Assembly (NCBI RefSeq): GCF_029227855.1
Contig: NZ_CP074358.1
Strand: one strand, 5' to 3'
Length of the DNA: 64,000 nt
Origin: Escherichia coli
GTDB taxonomy: Bacteria; Pseudomonadota; Gammaproteobacteria; Enterobacterales; Enterobacteriaceae
The position numbers and the translations under genes were made by a program. A model generated the notes under the pieces. That model worked only from the letters and a program-made list of their open reading frames with translations, made no database searches and was not told the DNA's origin. Below, piece after piece: positions 3,583-62,095 of this stretch. How positions within the stretch are numbered: the first letter of the stretch is position 1; each line of letters starts with the position of its first letter.

Positions 3583-4220
3583 TTATTATTAGCTATTAAT
3601 CAGTTTTTTAGTTTTTGAAAATTGTGATGCTTCTAAAATTACTAAAATTGAGGATTTTAATGCTACAACAATGCCTGCCTCTTCTTATTTCTCCGGAGAT
3701 CCGAAAACCCCAAGTTCAGGATCTTCCTCTCCCCCCACACAACGCCACCTCCTGTAAGCACAATATGTGGTGCCGGATTCAGCTACTGATGACACTATAT
3801 GTTGTGTCATCTCCCTGACCTGTGATGCGTCGCGCAGGGGCGGAAAACAGCGATATGATGATTTCCTCAGCGTGGTACACTTCCGGAAACCCGTCAATAA
3901 CAGAAAAATCGGATCTGCCTGAAATGGGCATCCGGTAATTTAATGGCGTGGTTATATGCCTGCTTATTATCTGACAGGTGATGATTTATTTAGGGGAAAA
4001 TAATTCATGCTGACAGAGTGTTGTGCTGCCATGCGTAATAACTCTGAGCGACTGTTGCTTCCGGTATCAGTTGAGTGAGGATTTTCAGACCACCACGTTT
4101 TACTGACCAGTAAAAATTTTTTTTGCCCGCAAGGCTGACAAGTGACTTCTTTTAGAATTTCGGCATCCACAACCAATGGCAGGAAGCCCGATGCAAAAAT
4201 TTTTAAGGAGAGCTCTTTTA

Positions 4221-7152: not shown

Positions 7153-7428
7153 TTACGTTAGTGTTTTTAAGTATTGCTCAAGGGCTACTCTGACGATGGC
7201 ACTTACATTTTTTGGATCTTTACCATTGCGTTTATTCCTCAATGCCAGATCTTCTATTGTGACAAGCATGCTTTCACCAAGAGAGATTGTCGTCCGACAT
7301 TGTTTTTCTGGTTCGGGTTTTTCCGGCGCGCCGTATGGTTTATCCGCAAGGCGCTGAGCCAGAGCCTCTGCTTGTTCTACCGTAACTGCAGCTCTGTTTA
7401 ATGCTTGCTGGCTGGGTTTCTTCACCAT
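7153..7428 (-). CDS. Small centromere-binding protein of a type Ib partition system (ParG / small-ParB-like, 91 aa)
   Basis: Immediately downstream of and overlapping the ParA gene; RHH-like C-terminus (TTISLGESMLVTIEDLALRN...). Confidence 0.6.
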   Translation of the reverse strand: MVKKPSQQALNRAAVTVEQAEALAQRLADKPYGAPEKPEPEKQCRTTISLGESMLVTIEDLALRNKRNGKDPKNVSAIVRVALEQYLKTLT

Positions 7429-8066
7429 GGGCCAAATACCTCATTCATTAAATGTTCAATTTCTGCTCTGGCTGCTGTATTGTTCGTTTCTACTACACCG
7501 GTGCCGTTGCTCATGCAATCGCGATAGACTTTTCTGAAACAAATAACTGAATCCAGGACTTGAATTGTTGGGAATTCTTCAAGATATTCAAGGAATTCTT
7601 TTCTCTCATTTCCCCTCAAAACCGGATTGGTTGTTGCCATACTTTGTAAACAATAAACCTTAAGTTCCGGGTTAAGGTTACGCATTGCGTCTATCTGTTG
7701 TTCTAGTTCTGTAAGAGTATCCAGATCTGGTTGAGAACACTGTAGTGGCGCAATTATTTGATGTGCGACAACTCCACTCGTTATGAATTCCTTTGAGTTT
7801 CTTCCTGCGACATCCACTATTACATCATCGAACTTTTCATTCAGAGCCTGTAGTGTTTGTGTCAGGTTATCAAATTTCTCAACAAGGGTTATTGCTGGTA
7901 ACAGTCCTGCAGCTTCTCGTTCTGCATGATGTTTTGCGGCTGTTCGTTGTAGATCTCCGTTTAACAGGCAGACTTCCCTTCCTTTATTTGCGAGAGCAAT
8001 AGCCAGGTTTGATGCAATGGTAGTTTTCCCTGAACCACCTTTGTTCCCACCAACTACAGTAATCAT
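7422..8066 (-). CDS. parA: ParA-family partition ATPase (small, ParF-like, about 214 aa)
   Basis: Deviant Walker A GGNKGGSGKTT; start moved to MITVVGG (ATG at 8066 with gagg RBS) rather than the longer ORF-track start. Confidence 0.85.
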   Translation of the reverse strand: MITVVGGNKGGSGKTTIASNLAIALANKGREVCLLNGDLQRTAAKHHAEREAAGLLPAITLVEKFDNLTQTLQALNEKFDDVIVDVAGRNSKEFITSGVVAHQIIAPLQCSQPDLDTLTELEQQIDAMRNLNPELKVYCLQSMATTNPVLRGNERKEFLEYLEEFPTIQVLDSVICFRKVYRDCMSNGTGVVETNNTAARAEIEHLMNEVFGPW

Positions 8067-8084: not shown

Positions 8085-8290
8085 ATGTGTGAAGTATGAT
8101 GATATTTTGACACGGTAACCTGATGTGTCAATATGCATTCATATTTATGAAGTATGAAATATGAAGTGTGTCATATGATGTAATAAATATTACTTGTGTT
8201 TTGTGATTTCATAACTATGATAGTTCTCAAATTGAGTATTACCTTGCAACCAGAAACAGTTATTTACTCAGATTGAGTATTTAAGGGGCT
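8085..8290. repeat. Iteron-rich intergenic region between divergent par operons (candidate shared centromere/promoter region)
   Basis: Repeated atgaagt(a/g)tg and tgtgatttcataa motifs between the divergent parA and parM starts. Confidence 0.5.
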
Positions 8291-8294
8291 ATAG

Positions 8295-9266
8295 ATGAAC
8301 GTATACTGCGATGATGGTTCAACAACAATCAAGTTGGCATGGAATGACAATGGGAAAATCTGTAAGTCGTTGTCGCAAAACTCATTTCGTCATGGATGGA
8401 AGGTTGACGGGTTAGGGATTCGCCAGACATTTAACTATGAACTGGATGGTAAAAAATACACGTATGATGAAGTTAGCAACCAATCTATTCTTACGACTCA
8501 TATTGAGTATCAATATACGGATGTTAACCTGTTAGCTGTGCATCACGCTTTACTGAATAGTGGATTAGCGCCTCAGCCTGTATCATTGACTGTGACTTTA
8601 CCTATCAGTGAGTTCTACACGAAAGAGTGTCAAAAAAATGAACTCAACATTCAGCGTAAAATTGAGAATTTAATGAGGCCGATTCGTCTTAATAAAGGCG
8701 ATGTTTTCACCATTGAACACGTTGATGTGATGCCTGAATCATTGCCAGCTGTGTTTTCTCGTCTGGTCATGGATAAAGTTGGTCAGTTCGAAAAATCGCT
8801 GGTAGTTGATATTGGCGGCACTACGCTTGATGTTGGTGTTATCGTTGGTCAATTTGACTCTGTAAGTGCCATTCATGGTAATTCTGGCATTGGTGTGTCT
8901 TCAGTTACGAAAGCTGCAATGAGTGCATTGCGCATGGCATCCAGTGATACCAGTTTCCTCGTTGCAGATGAATTGATTAAACGTCGTAATGATCCGGATT
9001 TTGTTCGGCAGGTTATAAATGACGAAACAAAAACTGATCTGGTCCTTAATACCATTGAGGGGGCTATTGCCAGTCTGGGGGAGCAAGTAGTCAATGAGCT
9101 CGGTGATTTTCATCATGTGAATCGTGTTTATGTTGTCGGTGGTGGGGCCCCGTTGATCTATGGTTCGATAAAAACGGCATGGCACCATCTTGGGCAAAAA
9201 GTAGTGATGATGGAGTCGCCACAGACAGCACTGGTTGAAGCTATCGCGGCTTTCAAAGAGGAGTAA
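8295..9266 (+). CDS. parM: Actin-like partition ATPase ParM/StbA
   Basis: N-terminal DDGSTTIKLAW and DIGGTTLD motifs of ParM/actin fold; 323 aa. Confidence 0.9.
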   Translation: MNVYCDDGSTTIKLAWNDNGKICKSLSQNSFRHGWKVDGLGIRQTFNYELDGKKYTYDEVSNQSILTTHIEYQYTDVNLLAVHHALLNSGLAPQPVSLTVTLPISEFYTKECQKNELNIQRKIENLMRPIRLNKGDVFTIEHVDVMPESLPAVFSRLVMDKVGQFEKSLVVDIGGTTLDVGVIVGQFDSVSAIHGNSGIGVSSVTKAAMSALRMASSDTSFLVADELIKRRNDPDFVRQVINDETKTDLVLNTIEGAIASLGEQVVNELGDFHHVNRVYVVGGGAPLIYGSIKTAWHHLGQKVVMMESPQTALVEAIAAFKEE

Positions 9267-9270
9267 TATT

Positions 9271-9663
9271 GTGGACGATGAACGGAAAAGGAAAAAATTC
9301 ACACTTTATCTGCATCCGGAAAAAGCTGCAGACTTTCAAACTTTGGAAGCGATAGAGTCCGTTCCGCGTTCTGAGCGTGGTGAGCTGTTCCGGAATGCAT
9401 TTATTTCTGGAATGGCGTTACACCAACTTGATCCTCGCCTGCCTGTATTGCTGACTGCCATTTTGAGCGAGGAGTTTTCAGCAGATCAGGTTGTAACCTT
9501 ACTCAGTCAGACGACTGGATGGAAGCCTTCTCAGGCCGATATCAGAGCTGTGTTGACTGAACTCGGTGCTTTGCAATCTGCTGAAAAAATGCCTCCTTCT
9601 GCTACTGATTCGGTGCAGGAGGCAATGAATGATGTGCGCCTTAAAATGCAAAAATTATTCTGA
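9271..9663 (+). CDS. parR: ParR/StbB centromere-binding adaptor
   Basis: Small basic ORF directly after parM; in-frame GTG at 9271 chosen just after the parM stop (ORF-track ATG at 9235 would overlap parM by 32 nt). Confidence 0.65.
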   Translation: MDDERKRKKFTLYLHPEKAADFQTLEAIESVPRSERGELFRNAFISGMALHQLDPRLPVLLTAILSEEFSADQVVTLLSQTTGWKPSQADIRAVLTELGALQSAEKMPPSATDSVQEAMNDVRLKMQKLF

Positions 9664-9674
9664 TATATCAGAAT
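9657..9674. repeat. Perfect 18-bp palindrome attctgatatatcagaat containing the stop codons of both convergent genes (parR and impB)
   Basis: Read directly; TGA at 9661-9663 (+) and TGA at 9670-9668 (-) are symmetric within the palindrome. Confidence 0.8.
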
Positions 9675-10939
9675 GAAGCAATGGGGATCTCAGTCCATTG
9701 TGTTGTATACGAAGGCGAGAGCATTTCCCGTTTCATTTGCCATTCAGGGGCGGTTCCTCGCCCCGCAAACCACACTTTCCCTTTTCCCGACTGGTTCAGT
9801 TCATCGAGTGTTTTCATTAACTTTTCACTGTTTTTACGGGGCTGGATTTCATCAAATAATCCCGGCTGCGCTATACCCGATGGTGTGAAATCAGCCAGCA
9901 TGACTCCTGCCTTCATATAGCGGTACCCTTCACGCCAGACATGGTTTAAGGCTCTGCATGCGGCGGCAATAATGTCCCGGCTGTCCTGTGTGGGCAATGG
10001 AAGCTTTTCCACAGCGGCATTGCTGTAACAGGGTTCTTTTACTGCAAAGGGGGATGTCCGTACAAATGTCGTCACCTGCCGGCAATACTGACGCTCCCCA
10101 CGTAGTTTCTCTGCGGCCCGCTCTGCATACTGAACAACAGCCTGGTGCATGGCATCTTTGTCTGTGATTCGTTCACCAAAACTGCGACTACAGACAATCT
10201 GCTGTTTTGCCGGTGGTGCTTCTTCCAGGGATATGCAGGACTCGCCGTTGAGTTCGCGTACCGTACGCTCAAGAATGACGCTGAAGTTTTTCCGGATGAA
10301 TGCCGTGTTAGCCTGCGCCAGCTGCAGTGCTGTGTTAATACCCAGCGCATTCAGCTTTTCCGTCAGTCTGCGTCCTACTCCCCAGACCTCACCAACTGGC
10401 TGCAGCCCCAGTAGCTTCAAGGTCCGATTACGGTTTTCTGCCGTCAGCGCGACCACTCCGGAAAACTGTGGCCATTGCTTTGTTGCCCACTGTGCACTTT
10501 TAGCCAGCGTTTTTGTAGGCGCAATGCCCACCCCCATGGTGAGTCCTGTCCAGCTCTTTACCTGTTCCCTGAGCTGATGACCAAAAAACTCCGGAGAGAT
10601 GCAATGATTTATCCCCCGCAAATCAATAAACATTTCATCAATTGAGTAGGGCTCAACTGCGGGAGAAAGCGACTCCAGAACAGCCATGACCCGTTGGCTC
10701 ATGCTGTGGTACAGCGCATAATTGCTGGAAAATACATGTATTTTCTTCTCCAGGCGCATCTGTCTCACCTGAAACCAGGGCTGCCCCATTCTGATGCCAA
10801 GGGCTTTTGCCTCCGGGCTGCGCGCGATCACACAGCCATCGTTATTGCTGAGTACGATGACCGGTTCGTTGCGAAGGTCCGGGCGGAAAACTTTTTCACA
10901 TGAGGCGTAGAAACTGTTGATATCAGCCAGTGCAAACAT
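9668..10939 (-). CDS. impB: Y-family error-prone DNA polymerase catalytic subunit (UmuC/MucB/ImpB family)
   Basis: N-terminus MFALADINSFYASCE...VIVLSNNDGCVIARS, typical UmuC/DinB fold; 423 aa. Confidence 0.9.
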   Translation of the reverse strand: MFALADINSFYASCEKVFRPDLRNEPVIVLSNNDGCVIARSPEAKALGIRMGQPWFQVRQMRLEKKIHVFSSNYALYHSMSQRVMAVLESLSPAVEPYSIDEMFIDLRGINHCISPEFFGHQLREQVKSWTGLTMGVGIAPTKTLAKSAQWATKQWPQFSGVVALTAENRNRTLKLLGLQPVGEVWGVGRRLTEKLNALGINTALQLAQANTAFIRKNFSVILERTVRELNGESCISLEEAPPAKQQIVCSRSFGERITDKDAMHQAVVQYAERAAEKLRGERQYCRQVTTFVRTSPFAVKEPCYSNAAVEKLPLPTQDSRDIIAAACRALNHVWREGYRYMKAGVMLADFTPSGIAQPGLFDEIQPRKNSEKLMKTLDELNQSGKGKVWFAGRGTAPEWQMKREMLSPSYTTQWTEIPIASF

Positions 10940-11376
10940 CAGCGTAACTCCCGCGTCCTGTGTATCACGTGAGTGACAACACCAAAAATACAGATGTTTT
11001 CCGGATACAGTGTGCGGAATTCCGGGCTGTCTGAAACCGGCTCCAGTGCCGGGCGTGGGCGCAACAGCAGTCGTTTGACGGTGAACTCACCGTCGATCTC
11101 AGCGATAACGATGTCCCCGTGTTGTGGTTTTTCGGCCCTGTCCACTACCAGCAGATCACCATTCTGCACGCCAGCCTGGTTCATCGATTCACCGCTGGCG
11201 CGCAGAAAGAAGGTGGCTGCAGGTCTGCTGATGCAATAGCTGTTCAGATCCAGTTCCTGCTCAGCATAATCAGTGGCAGGCGAAGGAAAACCGGCCTGGC
11301 AACGATCGGCAAACAACGGTCGCACGTAACTGTCATCGCCTGAAGGGTCAGCCGGACGGTGATAAACGGTACTCAT
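10939..11376 (-). CDS. impA: UmuD/MucA/ImpA-like LexA-type S24 peptidase accessory subunit
   Basis: 145 aa; S24 self-cleaving peptidase motifs (…AGFPSPA… SM… VVDR… GDIVIAEIDGEFTVKRL). Confidence 0.9.
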   Translation of the reverse strand: MSTVYHRPADPSGDDSYVRPLFADRCQAGFPSPATDYAEQELDLNSYCISRPAATFFLRASGESMNQAGVQNGDLLVVDRAEKPQHGDIVIAEIDGEFTVKRLLLRPRPALEPVSDSPEFRTLYPENICIFGVVTHVIHRTRELR

Positions 11377-11621
11377 GCTGCAGGCAGCCAGCTGTCGTCC
11401 TGCCAGATTTCTTCCAGCAGAGACAGGATACGTTCTTTATCCTTGTCGTTGCGGGCTCCTGTGACAGATACAGACGGGGCGCTGCCCTGGTCAATACGCA
11501 GCCAGATTTCCGGGTAGTGTGGTTTCAGACGTTGTTCGATTTCATTCTGTAGCGCCTGAAGTGTGCCTGATTTGAGGTTTTTTGTGCTCTGGCGGTCGAA
11601 AAGAATTTCAATGCGGATCAT
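11373..11621 (-). CDS. impC: ImpC-like small protein, first gene of impCAB operon (82 aa)
   Basis: Start moved to MIRIEILFDR (ATG 11621, ggaga RBS); overlaps impA start; position and size match ImpC. Confidence 0.7.
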   Translation of the reverse strand: MIRIEILFDRQSTKNLKSGTLQALQNEIEQRLKPHYPEIWLRIDQGSAPSVSVTGARNDKDKERILSLLEEIWQDDSWLPAA

Positions 11622-11644: not shown

Positions 11645-11660
11645 CTGTATGTATATACAG
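11645..11660. promoter_or_regulatory. LexA (SOS) box CTGTATGTATATACAG upstream of impC
   Basis: Matches CTGT-N8-ACAG consensus, about 25 bp upstream of impC start. Confidence 0.75.
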
Positions 11661-12012
11661 TATTCTAATAACTGAATTCACACAGTCAAATGTCCTTATT
11701 GTGACTAAAAAACGCTCAGCTCTCTGAGTGTGTGCCTGTATGCCTGCTGTGGACTGCTGTGTCCAGCTTATCCACAGCATTATGCGCACGGTTCTGTGGA
11801 CAAAATACCTGGTTACCCAGGCCGTGCCGGCACGTTAACCGGGCTGCATCCGATGCAAGTGTGTCGCTGTTGCCGGCCTCCTCACCCGGTCACGTTTCGT
11901 CGTTCCTCCTCCACGCGCTGCGGCTTCGGGGCCGCACCTGCATTCGTATGCGGTCGCCCGGTTACAGGTGCGGCACGGCCTGATGGAGGCCGCATGTAAG
12001 AGGAGAATTCCC

Positions 12013-17625: not shown

Positions 17626-17853
17626 TCTTTAAAAATCAGGATTTATTTCAGGCTCCGGCAATACGCATTTATGTGTTCTGTCAGTCATCCGGCTGGCAGG
17701 TAATGAGAACGCAGGAACAGAAGGAGGAAAACACCGGAGAACGTCAGACGCAGATATGAAAAAAGCAGGTCAGGGACCTGCTTAATCCACACCGCAGAGA
17801 CTGCACGAACAGTCTTTACGGTTTCATTAATTAACGTCATAAGAGGCTAAATT

Positions 17854-18084
17854 ATGACAGTAAGTATTGTTTCACCTTCCGCAGCGGCTGTAAAGCCCCG
17901 CCGTCATCCCCGTTGCAGACGCGAAGACATCCCCGCGCCGGAAATTGACCCCGTGCTGAAAGCCTTCGGGCGACACATTGCCCGGAGTTTTCACCGGGGG
18001 CGTGGTGTACACATCCCCGCCATGAAAAACACGGCCTTCGGGCAGGTGCTCCGCACACTCGAACTGAAACGCGCTTTTAACTGA
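17854..18084 (+). CDS. Small basic hypothetical protein (76 aa)
   Basis: First ORF after repeat copy A; RBS agagg about 10 nt upstream. Confidence 0.35.
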   Translation: MTVSIVSPSAAAVKPRRHPRCRREDIPAPEIDPVLKAFGRHIARSFHRGRGVHIPAMKNTAFGQVLRTLELKRAFN

Positions 18085-25056: not shown

Positions 25057-25249
25057 TGCGGCAACAATCACACGGATTTCCCGTGAACGGTCTGAATGAG
25101 CGGATTATTTTCAGGGAAAGTGAGTGTGGTCAGCGTGCAGGTATATGGGCTATGATGTGCCCGGCGCTTGAGGCTTTCTGCCTCATGACGTGAAGGTGGT
25201 TTGTTGCCGTGTTGTGTGGCAGAAAGAAGATAGCCCCGTAGTAAGTTAA

Positions 25250-25320
25250 TTTTCATTAACCACCACGAGGCATCCCTATGTCTAGTCCACATCAGGATAG
25301 CCTCTTACCGCGCTTTGCGC
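25250..25320 (-). ncRNA. sok: Candidate Sok-like antisense RNA of the hok/mok locus (approximate coordinates)
   Basis: Inferred from hok/sok architecture; region antisense to the mok translation-initiation region. Confidence 0.35.
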
Positions 25321-25490
25321 AAGGAGAAGAAGGCCATGAAACTACCACGAAGTTCCCTTGTCTGGTGTGTGTTGATCGTGTGTCTCACACTGTTGATATT
25401 CACTTATCTGACACGAAAATCGCTGTGCGAGATTCGTTACAGAGACGGACACAGGGAGGTGGCGGCTTTCATGGCTTACGAATCCGGTAA
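25278..25490 (+). CDS. mok: Mok-like overlapping reading frame (modulator of hok translation)
   Basis: 70-codon ORF overlapping hok in another frame, as in hok/sok loci. Confidence 0.5.
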
Positions 25491-28863: not shown

Positions 28864-29247
28864 ATGGCTAAGGTGAACCTGTATATCAGCAATGATGCCT
28901 ATGAAAAAATAAATGCGATTATTGAGAAGCGTCGACAGGAAGGGGCAAGGGAAAAAGATGTCAGTTTTTCAGCAACAGCTTCAATGCTTCTTGAACTGGG
29001 GCTTCGTGTACATGAGGCTCAGATGGAGCGTAAAGAGTCTGCATTTAATCAGACTGAGTTTAATAAATTGCTTCTTGAATGCGTTGTAAAAACACAATCA
29101 TCAGTAGCGAAAATTTTGGGTATTGAGTCTCTCAGTCCTCATGTCTCCGGAAATCCAAAGTTTGAATATGCCAATATGGTTGAAGATATCAGGGAGAAGG
29201 TATCATCTGAGATGGAACGATTTTTTCCAAAAAATGATGATGAATAA
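28864..29247 (+). CDS. traM: TraM relaxosome accessory protein
   Basis: 127 aa matching recalled F TraM (MAKVNLYISNDAYEKINAIIEKRRQEGAREKDVSFSATASMLLELGL...). Confidence 0.95.
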   Translation: MAKVNLYISNDAYEKINAIIEKRRQEGAREKDVSFSATASMLLELGLRVHEAQMERKESAFNQTEFNKLLLECVVKTQSSVAKILGIESLSPHVSGNPKFEYANMVEDIREKVSSEMERFFPKNDDE

Positions 29248-60376: not shown

Positions 60377-61233
60377 AAAAAAGCCTCCATCAGAGAGAGG
60401 AGGCAGGGAAATAAGGCTTAAAAGGAAATAACTTCCGTACCCGAAAGGAAGCCAGTCCACTGAATTATTTACCACAATAATACTGACGACTAAAAGGGAG
60501 GGGCAGAAAAATGAATGGATTCAGAAACAGTTCACGGAACGGTCAGGTCTGGCGCTGGCAGCGTGCCGGAAGCCGGGCCGTTATTCTGGAGGTCAGTGGA
60601 CGCTGGATGGATGCGGCAGAAGCATGGCGACGGGCTGCCGGTGTTGCGCCCCGGACAGACTGGCGGCAGTTTGCCCGAAAAAGGGCTGCACACTGCCACC
60701 GGCGCTGCCGGGGAAGGGTGTAACGAAAAAAGCAGCCTTCATTACTCCTGGAGTCAGAAGGCTGAATAATGCATGAGATTTACTTTTTTAATCTCCGGTC
60801 GGGTAGTATGACCGGACAACTCTGAGTAGCACAGAGTTTTTTTCCGTATTAAGTCGTGATTTTATATTTTGTGATTTATTTCACAAAATAAGGTGTTATT
60901 CAATGTGTGCTGCAATATTCAGGATGCCTGAAATACAGGTGCCATTTATTTGATATGGAGAATAACATGAGGGAATATATTCCACTGGTATTATTTATCT
61001 TTTCATAGCCGGTATTGTCTGCAGATATTTATGGGCAGGTTGTTCGTGTACTGGGCCAGCAGGAAAGTCTGTGCAGAAGCTTACGGTTTGAATAAGTTGA
61101 ACCCCATAAGACTCTGATTAATATAATTTGTGGCACACAGATACTTGCGGGAAAAGTGTTTCGCACTGAATCTTAACTGGAAATGTAAACTATTTTTAAC
61201 ACCCCCAAAATCCTTTTGGGGAACAACTCATGC

Positions 61234-61551: not shown

Positions 61552-61888
61552 ACCTTATTGGGTGTATTAAAAACAGTAGGCTGCCAAAGTCTTAAACAAG
61601 TTTCAATTCTCCATGACTGCTCAACATCAGACAGAGGGAATTCCCATTCTGGACCAGCGGGAGCATACGAACAATAATTTACGGTTTCGCGCTATAGCTG
61701 GCTCAAGTTAGGTTGGACCCTGAATCTCCAGACAACCAATATCTGATCGCGCCAGTGGTGGCAGTTATTAAGCAACAGGGAATGTAGTATTATCGCGGCG
61801 GGTGTCTGAGCCTTTCTGGTTCAGGCAAGACGCAGGTACCAGAAATGCGAAGACCCCACTTGTTAATCCATTAACTCGTGAGGTCTGC

Positions 61889-62095
61889 ATGAAGTACCTT
61901 AACACTACTGATTGTAGCCTCTTCCTTGCAGAGAGGTCAAAGTTTATGACGAAATATGCCCTTATCGGGTTGCTCGCCGTGTGCGCCACGGTGTTGTGTT
62001 TTTCACTGATATTCAGGGAACGGTTATGTGAGCTGAATATTCACAGAGGAAATACAGTGGTGCAGGTAACTCTGGCCTACGAAGCACGGAAGTAA
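61889..62095 (+). CDS. srnB: SrnB/Hok-family membrane toxin (68-aa frame; Hok-like core from internal Met at 61946)
   Basis: MKYLNTTDCSLFLAERSKFMTKYALIGLLAVCATVLCFSLIFRERLCELNIHRGNTVVQVTLAYEARK; hairpin cggggac-ggaa-gtccccg downstream at ~62104-62128. Confidence 0.85.
   Translation: MKYLNTTDCSLFLAERSKFMTKYALIGLLAVCATVLCFSLIFRERLCELNIHRGNTVVQVTLAYEARK

What the first reader, a model, noticed from the sequence alone, without database searches (positions are those of the whole stretch)
9657..9674. Perfect 18-bp palindrome built around the two convergent stop codons of parR and impB
attctgatatatcagaat is its own reverse complement. TGA of parR (9661-9663) and TGA of impB (9670-9668, bottom strand) sit symmetrically inside it, leaving only 4 nt between the genes. 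It may act as a compact bidirectional terminator or a protein-binding site, or be a junction scar between modules.
Basis: seen in the sequence. Interest (0 to 1): 0.3.

Follow-up and report, generated by a model that had tools for sequence, protein, structure and literature searches.

The report
Palindrome on decayed ParR site
The perfect 18-bp palindrome where the plasmid genes parR and impB meet is real, but it is probably an incidental, lineage-specific feature that replaced a binding site for the partition protein ParR, which related plasmids still have at that spot.

Summary
ATTCTGATATATCAGAAT (9657-9674) is a perfect palindrome containing both convergent TGA stops, with a 4-nt TATA gap.

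- Terminator: the RNA hairpin is weak (7 bp, 2 G-C pairs, -5 kcal/mol). There is no U tract on the parMR-sense strand and only an offset U-rich tail on the impB-sense strand. The terminator scan does not call it.
- Junction scar: the head-on parR/impB abutment (gaps of 1-4 nt) occurs in several diverged plasmid lineages, so it is old. The mosaic breakpoint lies about 50 nt inside impB (~9721).
- ParR site: the palindrome scores -7 bits against the ParR-box matrix.

In 8 of 15 related par1 lineages, a canonical ParR box (TACTCA-N3-TGAGTA) starts 3-4 nt after the parR stop, whatever gene follows. The window lineage (pB171 type, 981 plasmid records) is nested among them and carries a decayed version. 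About five changes, including ImpB's last codon Ile to Phe, destroyed the box and produced the palindrome.

My best reading is a relic with no dedicated function. A weak 3' hairpin role remains possible. The downstream and intragenic ParR boxes are the more interesting lead.

The parts
9657..9674 (.). Perfect 18-bp palindrome ATTCTGA-TATA-TCAGAAT. Each 7-nt arm is the last base of the penultimate codon, then Phe (TTC), then TGA, of parR (left arm) and impB (right arm, bottom strand).
   Evidence: Unique in the window even with 3 mismatches allowed.
9271..9663 (+). parR (stbB) of a pB171-type par1 locus, 130 aa. An alternative TTG start lies at 9235.
   Evidence: Pfam Plasmid_stab_B, E=1e-29. 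About 97% identical over 130 aa to PDB 2JD3 'StbB protein', E=1e-78. That 2JD3 is pB171 ParR is from memory. Annotation in pS65EC.
9668..10939 (-). impB, a Y-family (UmuC-like) DNA polymerase subunit, 423 aa, ending ...PIASF*.
   Evidence: Pfam IMS, IMS_C and DUF4113; annotation.
9662..9682 (.). Position homologous to the 3' ParR box of related par1 loci. Here it is decayed: TGATATATCAGAATGAAGC, against TGATACTCAAATTGAGGC in L010/L016/L017.
   Evidence: Best matrix score here is -7.0 to -7.5 bits, against 12.6-26.9 bits at the same offset in 8 relatives. Alignments.
8221..8241 (.). Upstream ParR box 1 in parC1 (tagttCTCAAATTGAGtatta).
   Evidence: Direct-repeat family D2; matrix 26.3 bits. [quoted passage not shown]
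8262..8282 (.). Upstream ParR box 2 in parC1 (atttaCTCAGATTGAGtattt), 41 bp from box 1.
   Evidence: 27.7 bits.
8492..8512 (.). ParR-like box inside parM (codons ~68-72, ACT CAT ATT GAG TAT).
   Evidence: Matrix 22.2 bits. The five codons are identical at all synonymous sites in the 6 box-bearing lineages of the 7 examined, while flanking codons vary. The same box string is present in 3 further loci.
8295..9266 (+). parM (stbA), actin-like partition ATPase.
   Evidence: Pfam StbA_N and ParM_N.
9643..9656 (.). A-rich tract (AAAATGCAAAAATT) encoding the Lys-rich ParR C-terminus. On the impB-sense strand it is the U-rich tail AAUUUUUGCAUUUU after the hairpin.
   Evidence: Similar Lys-codon tracts occur in relatives.
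9679..9700 (+). Second small hairpin on the parMR-sense strand (7 bp, 8-nt loop, -6.6 kcal/mol), followed by UGUUGUAU. It lies inside the impB tail codons.
   Evidence: Not conserved in relatives.
9690..9722 (.). Mosaic breakpoint zone. To the right, the imp operon is 97-100% identical to that of IncI-gamma/K plasmids. To the left, the impB tail and par genes are diverged.
   Evidence: ImpB is 98% identical but ParM only 37% between the window and L003.
10939..11621 (-). impA (UmuD-like, 10939-11376) and impC (DinI-like, 11373-11621).
   Evidence: Pfam Peptidase_S24 and DinI; annotation.
11645..11689 (-). imp promoter (TTGACT-16-TAGAAT, 11689-11662) with a perfect LexA box CTGTATGTATATACAG (11645-11660).
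7153..8066 (-). par2 (parA ATPase 7422-8066; small RHH parB 7153-7428), divergent from par1. Together they form the 'double par locus'.

Best explanation
The palindrome is a lineage-specific by-product with no dedicated function. It sits on the decayed remains of a ParR operator-like box that related par1 (parMRC) loci carry immediately after the parR stop codon.

In the common ancestor, parR and impB already abutted head-on, and the box (TACTCA-N3-TGAG) overlapped impB's last codons (...Ala-Ser-Ile-stop). In the pB171-type lineage about five mutations destroyed the box: a 1-nt insertion or substitution in the spacer, ImpB's last codon ATT (Ile) to TTC (Phe), a change in each box arm, and TTA as ParR's penultimate codon. 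Together these made the two gene ends (A-TTC-TGA on each strand) exact mirror images around TATA.

The change could have come from drift, or from a templated (quasi-palindrome template-switch) mutation. That step is inferred, not shown.

As RNA the palindrome forms only a weak 7-bp hairpin, so transcription from either side is not expected to stop efficiently there. Its uniformity in about 980 plasmids reflects the youth of the lineage (>=95% identity), not demonstrated selection.
For: Weak structure: -5.0 kcal/mol and 2 of 7 G-C pairs. The minus-strand context folds no better than shuffles (z = -0.2). It is not called by the terminator scan, and terminator-type scores are -66 to -90.

Lineage-specific:
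- 981 plasmid records carry it, all >=90% identical over 46 nt: 632 exact, 345 with one mismatch, 4 more divergent. In the two sampled records the single mismatch is a SNP outside the palindrome.
- No palindrome occurs at the same junction in L003 (gap 1 nt), L010/L016/L017 (gap 3 nt), or L020/L025 (gap 4 nt).
- A scan of one genome from each of 100,044 species finds it in par/imp context only in one Escherichia contig.

Relic of a box:
- A ParR box starts 3-4 nt after the parR stop in 8 of 15 lineages (12.6-26.9 bits). The next gene can be impB abutting, impB 28 nt away, psiB, or a hypothetical gene.
- The window scores -7 bits at the same offset.
- The window lineage is nested among box-bearing lineages in a ParM+ParR tree.

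No sign of constraint:
- In pCFR-9161, where impB is IS26-truncated, the palindrome carries 2 substitutions.
- A second perfect 18-bp palindrome inside impB coding sequence is not conserved, so such palindromes do arise incidentally here.
Against: All the derived changes go in the direction of perfect symmetry. I estimate roughly 2e-3 by chance, post hoc, which hints at a directional process such as selection for a hairpin or templated mutation.

On the parMR-sense strand, the 61 nt around the junction fold better than all 200 shuffles (z = -2.9). On the impB-sense strand the hairpin is followed by a U-rich tail.

Within-lineage diversity is too low to test for constraint. No transcript 3'-end data were available.

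Tree support for nesting is moderate (54-79% bootstrap), and recombination is frequent in this region.
Confidence: 0.55

Rival explanations
1. The palindrome is a weak RNA 3'-end element. It could act as a low-efficiency intrinsic terminator or 3' stabilising stem-loop for the SOS-induced impCAB mRNA (hairpin plus AAUUUUUGCAUUUU). Alternatively, together with the second hairpin at 9679-9700, it could act as a 3' structure for parMR mRNA. In either case it may have taken over an insulating role from the lost ParR box.
For: The hairpin forms in the minimum-free-energy folds of both strands. The plus-strand 61-nt context has z = -2.9, with 0 of 200 shuffles folding as well. A U-rich tail follows on the minus strand. 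The derived mutations all increase symmetry. impCAB over-expression is toxic, so control of transcription around this operon matters (PMC10286972). The 1-4-nt gene gaps leave no room for a canonical terminator.
Against: The hairpin is only -5 kcal/mol with 2 G-C pairs. The U tract is offset by AA and interrupted. There is no U tract on the plus strand. The terminator scan does not call it, and scores lie far below two classic terminators. The U-rich tail is a by-product of the Lys-rich ParR C-terminus and is also present in relatives without the hairpin. The hairpin is not conserved outside one young lineage.
Confidence: 0.25
2. The palindrome is a protein-binding site, either a variant ParR operator (half-sites TCAGAAT spaced by 4) or the target of another dimeric DNA-binding protein.
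For: It occupies exactly the position of a conserved ParR box in relatives. It has perfect dyad symmetry. Its half-site TCAGAAT matches the box half-site TGAGTAT at 5 of 7 positions (my comparison of the consensus).
Against: The matrix score is -7 bits, while this plasmid's own upstream and intragenic boxes are canonical at 22-28 bits. The arm spacing differs (4 against 3). No second copy or near copy exists in the 64-kb window. It is not a LexA box: it reads CTG-N6-CAG, not CTGT-N8-ACAG, and the true LexA box is at 11645. There is no Rfam or other motif match.
Confidence: 0.1
3. The palindrome is a scar left when a par module and an imp module were joined by recombination or transposition.
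For: The region is mosaic. The imp operon is 97-100% identical between IncF and IncI/K plasmids whose par genes differ. In one plasmid (pSCU-175-3) an IS3-family element is inserted exactly at the palindrome centre.
Against: The homology breakpoint is at about 9721, inside impB, not at 9657-9674. The parR/impB abutment with 1-4-nt gaps is shared by lineages with ParR identity of 28-69% and diverged impB tails, so the junction predates the lineage. The junction sequence aligns base-for-base with relatives.
Confidence: 0.03

Closest known systems
Bidirectional intrinsic terminators between convergent bacterial genes (hairpin flanked by an A tract and a U tract; from my own knowledge, e.g. Ju et al. 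2019)
   Same: It is an inverted repeat placed symmetrically between two convergent genes. An A-rich tract on one side gives a U-rich tail for one direction.
   Different: The stem is A+T-rich and weak (-5 kcal/mol). The flanks are not symmetric, with no U tract for the parMR direction. It overlaps both stop codons rather than lying in an intergenic spacer. It is not conserved in relatives.
ParR operator/centromere boxes of the pB171 par1 locus (parC1; Ringgaard et al. 2007, as cited in PMC9426499; ParR structure PDB 2JD3)
   Same: The palindrome lies where 8 of 15 related par1 loci have a box of the same consensus as the parC1 boxes (TAATACTCAAATTGAGTATTA). Its sequence aligns to that box with about 5 changes.
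   Different: It no longer matches the box (-7 bits). Its symmetry centre is shifted about 6 nt and its arm spacing is 4 rather than 3.
Dual centromere arrays flanking type Ib par operons (pB171 par2 parC1/parC2, pSM19035, pESBL; PMC7602700)
   Same: [quoted passage not shown]
   Different: Those are type Ib (ParA/ParB) systems with arrays of repeats. Here it is a type II (ParM/ParR) locus with a single downstream box and one intragenic box, and the window's own downstream box is decayed.
Quasi-palindrome template-switch mutations (from my own knowledge of E. coli mutagenesis literature)
   Same: Several nearby changes all convert an imperfect inverted repeat into a perfect one.
   Different: The pre-existing complementarity in the inferred ancestor (TTCTGA...TCA) is short. 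No intermediate sequences were found, so a single templated event is only a possibility.

Membership tests
Rho-independent (intrinsic) terminator | Stable, usually G+C-rich stem-loop | tested here: not met
   7-bp stem, 2 G-C pairs, -5.0 kcal/mol. Fails the scan's criterion of at least 3 G-C pairs.
Rho-independent (intrinsic) terminator | U tract immediately 3' of the stem, on both strands if bidirectional | tested here: not met
   The plus strand is followed by GAAGCAAUGG (tail score 0.02). The minus strand is followed by AAUUUUUGCAUUUU (tail score 1.32, against 2.8-4.2 for two of the three controls).
Rho-independent (intrinsic) terminator | Transcript 3' ends map just after the hairpin | not testable with these tools
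   No Term-seq or RNA-seq data were accessible.
Rho-independent (intrinsic) terminator | Structure kept in diverged relatives, by conservation or compensatory changes | tested here: not met
   No comparable hairpin at the junction in L003, L010, L016, L017, L019, L020 or L025.
ParR operator box of pB171-family par1 loci | Match to consensus TACTCA-N3-TGAGTA | tested here: not met
   -7.0 to -7.5 bits, against 22-28 bits for this plasmid's three boxes and 12.6-26.9 bits for the 3' boxes of relatives.
ParR operator box of pB171-family par1 loci | Positional homology to a box in related loci | tested here: met
   Same offset (3-4 nt after the parR stop) and alignable sequence.
ParR operator box of pB171-family par1 loci | Bound by ParR | not testable with these tools
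   Requires EMSA or ChIP.
Recombination/module junction scar | Homology to other replicons ends at the feature | tested here: not met
   Breakpoints lie at about 9690-9722.
Recombination/module junction scar | Gene adjacency restricted to the lineage carrying the feature | tested here: not met
   The same convergent abutment occurs in L003, L010, L016, L017, L020 and L025.
LexA (SOS) box | CTGT-N8-ACAG | tested here: not met
   The palindrome is CTG-N6-CAG. The genuine box of the imp operon is at 11645-11660.
Any curated RNA family (Rfam 15) | Covariance-model match | tested here: not met
   No hit at gathering threshold. Only chance-level hits with E >= 0.2.

The most novel reading that the evidence does not exclude
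pB171-family type II partition loci may have ParR sites not only upstream of parM but also inside parM (codons ~68-72) and directly after parR. ParR would then bracket or loop its whole operon and could act as a protein roadblock, insulating par from the convergent, toxic, SOS-induced impCAB operon. In the pB171-type lineage itself the 3' site would have been swapped for an 18-bp hairpin-forming palindrome that takes over that insulating job. The first part (extra boxes are real ParR sites) I rate at about 0.6. The full reading, including functional replacement by the palindrome, is much less likely.
Probability: 0.1. Interest if true: 0.6.

Novelty: new variant of a known kind. Interest (0 to 1): 0.33.

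Why it matters
The palindrome itself matters little. It is probably a neutral relic and a poor terminator.

Tracing it uncovered a lead I did not find described in the papers I could search. In many relatives of the well-studied pB171 par1 system, a canonical ParR box sits at a fixed position just after parR, and another sits inside parM with frozen synonymous sites.

If ParR binds these, the type II partition complex of this family spans its own operon. It may also shield the operon from, or interfere with, the abutting SOS mutagenesis operon impCAB, whose over-expression is toxic (PMC10286972). pB171, the model plasmid, belongs to the lineage that lost the 3' box, which would explain why experiments on it did not reveal the site.

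Tried and rejected
- **Within-lineage polymorphism as a test of constraint.** 981 records fall into only two major haplotypes, and the common SNPs lie outside the palindrome, so there is no statistical power.
- **A second copy or half-site enrichment.** There is no other copy within 3 mismatches. TTCTGATA occurs 5 times against 1.4 expected, but two of the five are the palindrome itself.
- **LexA, CRP, FNR, Fur or IHF-type sites.** Spacing and sequence do not fit (inspection; for LexA).
- **Rfam.** Nothing relevant.
- **Literature on the pB171 ParR sites and on imp/par transcript ends.** Only secondary statements were found.
- **Distant blastn with the L017 junction.** It was swamped by unrelated plasmid umuC genes.
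- **Coding constraint of ImpB (...ASI*) as the explanation for the box in L010/L016/L017.** Rejected, because the box is present where impB is 28 nt away (L019) or absent (L021, L024).
- **Cruciform extrusion or a conjugative ssDNA promoter role.** Considered and dismissed without a test, because 7-bp arms are too short (my knowledge).

Full report
**Observation.** Positions 9657-9674 read ATTCTGATATATCAGAAT, which is its own reverse complement. The symmetry stops there, with T9656 facing G9675. The parR ORF ends with TGA at 9661-9663. The impB ORF (9668..10939, minus strand) ends with TGA read from 9670 to 9668. The two stops are separated by TATA. RefSeq annotation of a 100%-identical plasmid, pS65EC (IncFIA/FIB), places the same two genes 4 nt apart. 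Each arm of the palindrome is 'A-TTC-TGA': both proteins end in Phe-stop.

**Chance.** The window has two perfect palindromes of 18 bp or more, against 0.29 expected, and 26% of simulated windows have at least one. The second one (10728-10745) lies in impB codons 65-71 and is not conserved in diverged impB genes, so it is an incidental control. Conditional on two TGA stops 4 nt apart, six more complementary pairs are needed, about 2-3e-4 by my arithmetic. The location is therefore improbable, but that figure is post hoc.

**Gene identities.** The 130-aa ParR is about 97% identical to PDB 2JD3 'StbB protein', which from memory is pB171 ParR. Pfam confirms the following:
- ParM (StbA_N/ParM_N) and ParR (Plasmid_stab_B);
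- ImpB (IMS, IMS_C, DUF4113), ImpA (Peptidase_S24) and ImpC (DinI);
- a divergent ParA/RHH-ParB pair.

This is the 'double par locus' of pB171 type. The imp operon has a sigma-70-like promoter with a perfect LexA box at 11645-11660. The window is an F-type plasmid, with FinP/traJ, CopA and sok matches.

**Terminator test.**
- The isolated hairpin is 7 bp with 2 G-C pairs and -5.0 kcal/mol.
- On the parMR-sense strand it can extend to 9 pairs and is followed by GAAGCAAUGG, with no U tract.
- On the impB-sense strand it is followed by AAUUUUUGCAUUUU. The 61-nt context on that strand folds no better than shuffles (z = -0.2). The plus-strand context does fold better (z = -2.9), thanks to a second small hairpin at 9679-9700.
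- The consensus terminator scan does not report it.
- A d'Aubenton-Carafa-type score (formula from memory) gives -66 (impB sense) and -84 to -90 (parMR sense), against about +2 and +21 for two classic terminators.
- The U-rich tail is the complement of the Lys-rich ParR C-terminus. It is also present in relatives that lack the hairpin.

**Close relatives.**
- 981 plasmid records carry the junction.
- Over a 46-nt block, 632 are exact and 345 differ at one position. In the two sampled records (L005, L009) that position is the 9649 C/A Gln/Lys SNP outside the palindrome.
- Four records are more divergent.
- In pCFR-9161, where impB is truncated by IS26, the palindrome has two substitutions.
- In pSCU-175-3 an IS3-family element sits exactly at the palindrome centre.
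- The whole lineage is at least 95% identical, so conservation says nothing about selection.

**Junction-scar test.** Megablast hits from IncI-gamma/K plasmids start at window 9690 or 9722. A three-way alignment shows near identity to the right of about 9721 and ordinary divergence to the left. ImpB is 98% identical between the window and L003, although ParM is only 37% identical. The recent exchange boundary is therefore inside impB, about 50 nt from its stop. The head-on parR/impB abutment itself is shared by diverged lineages:

| Locus | Source | Stop-to-stop gap |
|---|---|---|
| L003 | IncK-type plasmid | 1 nt |
| L010 | Leclercia | 3 nt |
| L016 | Citrobacter | 3 nt |
| L017 | Enterobacter | 3 nt |
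| L020 | metagenome | 4 nt |
| L025 | gut metagenome | 4 nt |

None of these has the palindrome. An exact-match scan of one genome from each of 100,044 species found the 18-mer 25 times. Only one hit, an Escherichia contig, is in par/imp context.

**What the site is in relatives.**
- Upstream of parM, every member of this par family has 1-3 (mostly 2-3) boxes of consensus TAATACTCAAATTGAGTATTA, about 41 bp apart. [quoted passage not shown]
- A position matrix built only from 27 upstream boxes finds a further box whose core starts 3-4 nt after the parR stop in 8 of 15 lineages: L024 26.9 bits, L025 23.4, L010 and L017 20.8, L021 20.4, L016 18.3, L019 18.0, and L020 12.6.
- In the loci examined individually, non-par sequence scored at most about 5 bits. 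Across the whole 64-kb window there were two chance hits of at least 12 bits.
- The gene after the box differs. impB abuts in six lineages, impB is 28 nt away in L019, psiB follows in L021, and a hypothetical gene follows in L024. The box therefore belongs to par and is not a side effect of ImpB's ...Ala-Ser-Ile-stop codons.

**State in the window.** The window scores -7 bits at the same offset. Its sequence TGATATATCAGAATGAAGC aligns with TGATACTCAAATTGAGGC with one indel and four substitutions. In an NJ tree of ParM+ParR, the window lineage groups with L010/L017 (66% bootstrap), and box-bearing lineages lie on both sides of the deepest split of the core clade. The simplest reading is that the box was lost in the window lineage, and independently in L022, L023 and L026.

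**How the palindrome arose (inference).**
- The left arm TTCTGA is ancestral: L017 and L019 have it.
- The right arm became TCAGAA when ImpB's last codon changed from ATT to TTC.
- The spacer became TATA.
- The outer A:T pair came from TTA as ParR's penultimate codon.

All derived changes increase symmetry. That is compatible with drift, with a templated quasi-palindrome mutation, or with weak selection for a hairpin. I cannot distinguish these.

**Verdict.**
- Observation confirmed.
- Most likely (0.55): a lineage-specific relic with no dedicated function.
- Next (0.25): a weak RNA 3' element.
- Then (0.10): a protein-binding site.
- Last (0.03): a junction scar.

The more interesting result is the conserved downstream box and an intragenic ParR-like box in parM. 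The intragenic box is at 8492-8512, and its five codons are frozen at all synonymous sites in the 6 box-bearing lineages of the 7 examined. impCAB over-expression is toxic (PMC10286972), so a ParR roadblock at this junction would be a sensible hypothesis to test.

Noticed in passing
window 8492-8512 (inside parM); same position in L010, L011, L013, L016, L017, L019, L021, L022: A canonical ParR-like box (ACGACTCATATTGAGTATCA) lies about 200 nt into parM. In the 7 lineages examined codon by codon, the codons ACT CAT ATT GAG TAT are identical at every synonymous site in the 6 that carry the box (ParM identity down to 66%), while neighbouring codons vary. The most distant lineage (L014) lacks the box. 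The same box string is also present in L019, L021 and L022. It looks like a DNA-level constraint, a candidate intragenic ParR site.
   Followed up: partly
L010 2879-2899, L016 2858-2878, L017 2666-2686, L019 2886-2906, L020 850-870, L021 2883-2903, L024 2882-2902, L025 2883-2903: A ParR box sits at a fixed offset (3-4 nt) after the parR stop in 8 of 15 par1 lineages, independent of the downstream gene. I did not find this described in the papers I could search or read.
   Followed up: yes
window ~9690-9722: There is a mosaic breakpoint inside impB. The imp operon to the right is 97-100% identical to that of IncI-gamma/K plasmids whose par loci are unrelated or highly diverged. The last ~18 impB codons co-diverge with par.
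   Followed up: partly
window 10728-10745: A second perfect 18-bp palindrome, GAAAATACATGTATTTTC, lies within impB codons 65-71. It is not conserved in impB genes of about 70% identity, so it is probably incidental.
   Followed up: yes
L015 (pSCU-175-3) ~2867: An IS3-family element is inserted exactly at the centre of the palindrome (...ttcTGATAT|TGAACCGCCCCGGG), with unrelated genes beyond it. This is a single case, so it is not evidence that the palindrome is an insertion hot spot.
   Followed up: partly
L002 ~2900-2965 (IncI-gamma plasmid p1-S1-KEN-03-A): In this plasmid the 3' end of impB is flanked by an array of about seven AGATAACA octamers and a type Ib parAB locus, instead of parMR. 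The octamers resemble the ParB-binding repeats reported for pESBL (PMC7602700).
   Followed up: no
window 11645-11689: A perfect LexA box, CTGTATGTATATACAG, adjoins the -10 of a TTGACT-16-TAGAAT promoter upstream of impC. This is as expected for the SOS-regulated imp operon.
   Followed up: yes
window 11818-11844 / 11956-11982: An inverted repeat with 27-nt arms (81% complementary, 111 nt apart) lies between the imp promoter region and the DUF1281 gene in the plasmid leading region. Its nature is unknown.
   Followed up: no
window 3637-3657 and 29043-29063: The ParR-box matrix hits these sites at 19.1 and 14.9 bits. The first is inside rclA in an IS-flanked insert and is taken as chance. The second is about 300 nt upstream of the traJ 5' UTR and was not examined.
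   Followed up: partly
L027 1166-1183, L036 8604-8621, L041 11729-11746 (Silvimonas spp.): The same 18-mer occurs at what looks like one conserved locus in three Silvimonas species, with shared flanks (ctgttttc...tatga). This is unrelated to par/imp.
   Followed up: no
window 25162-25338 and 61800-61956; 17760-17859; 60620-60802: There are two sok antitoxin RNA matches and several antisense RNA families first described on pHK01 (AS-pc01, AS-pc02, AS-traI, AS-traG).
   Followed up: no
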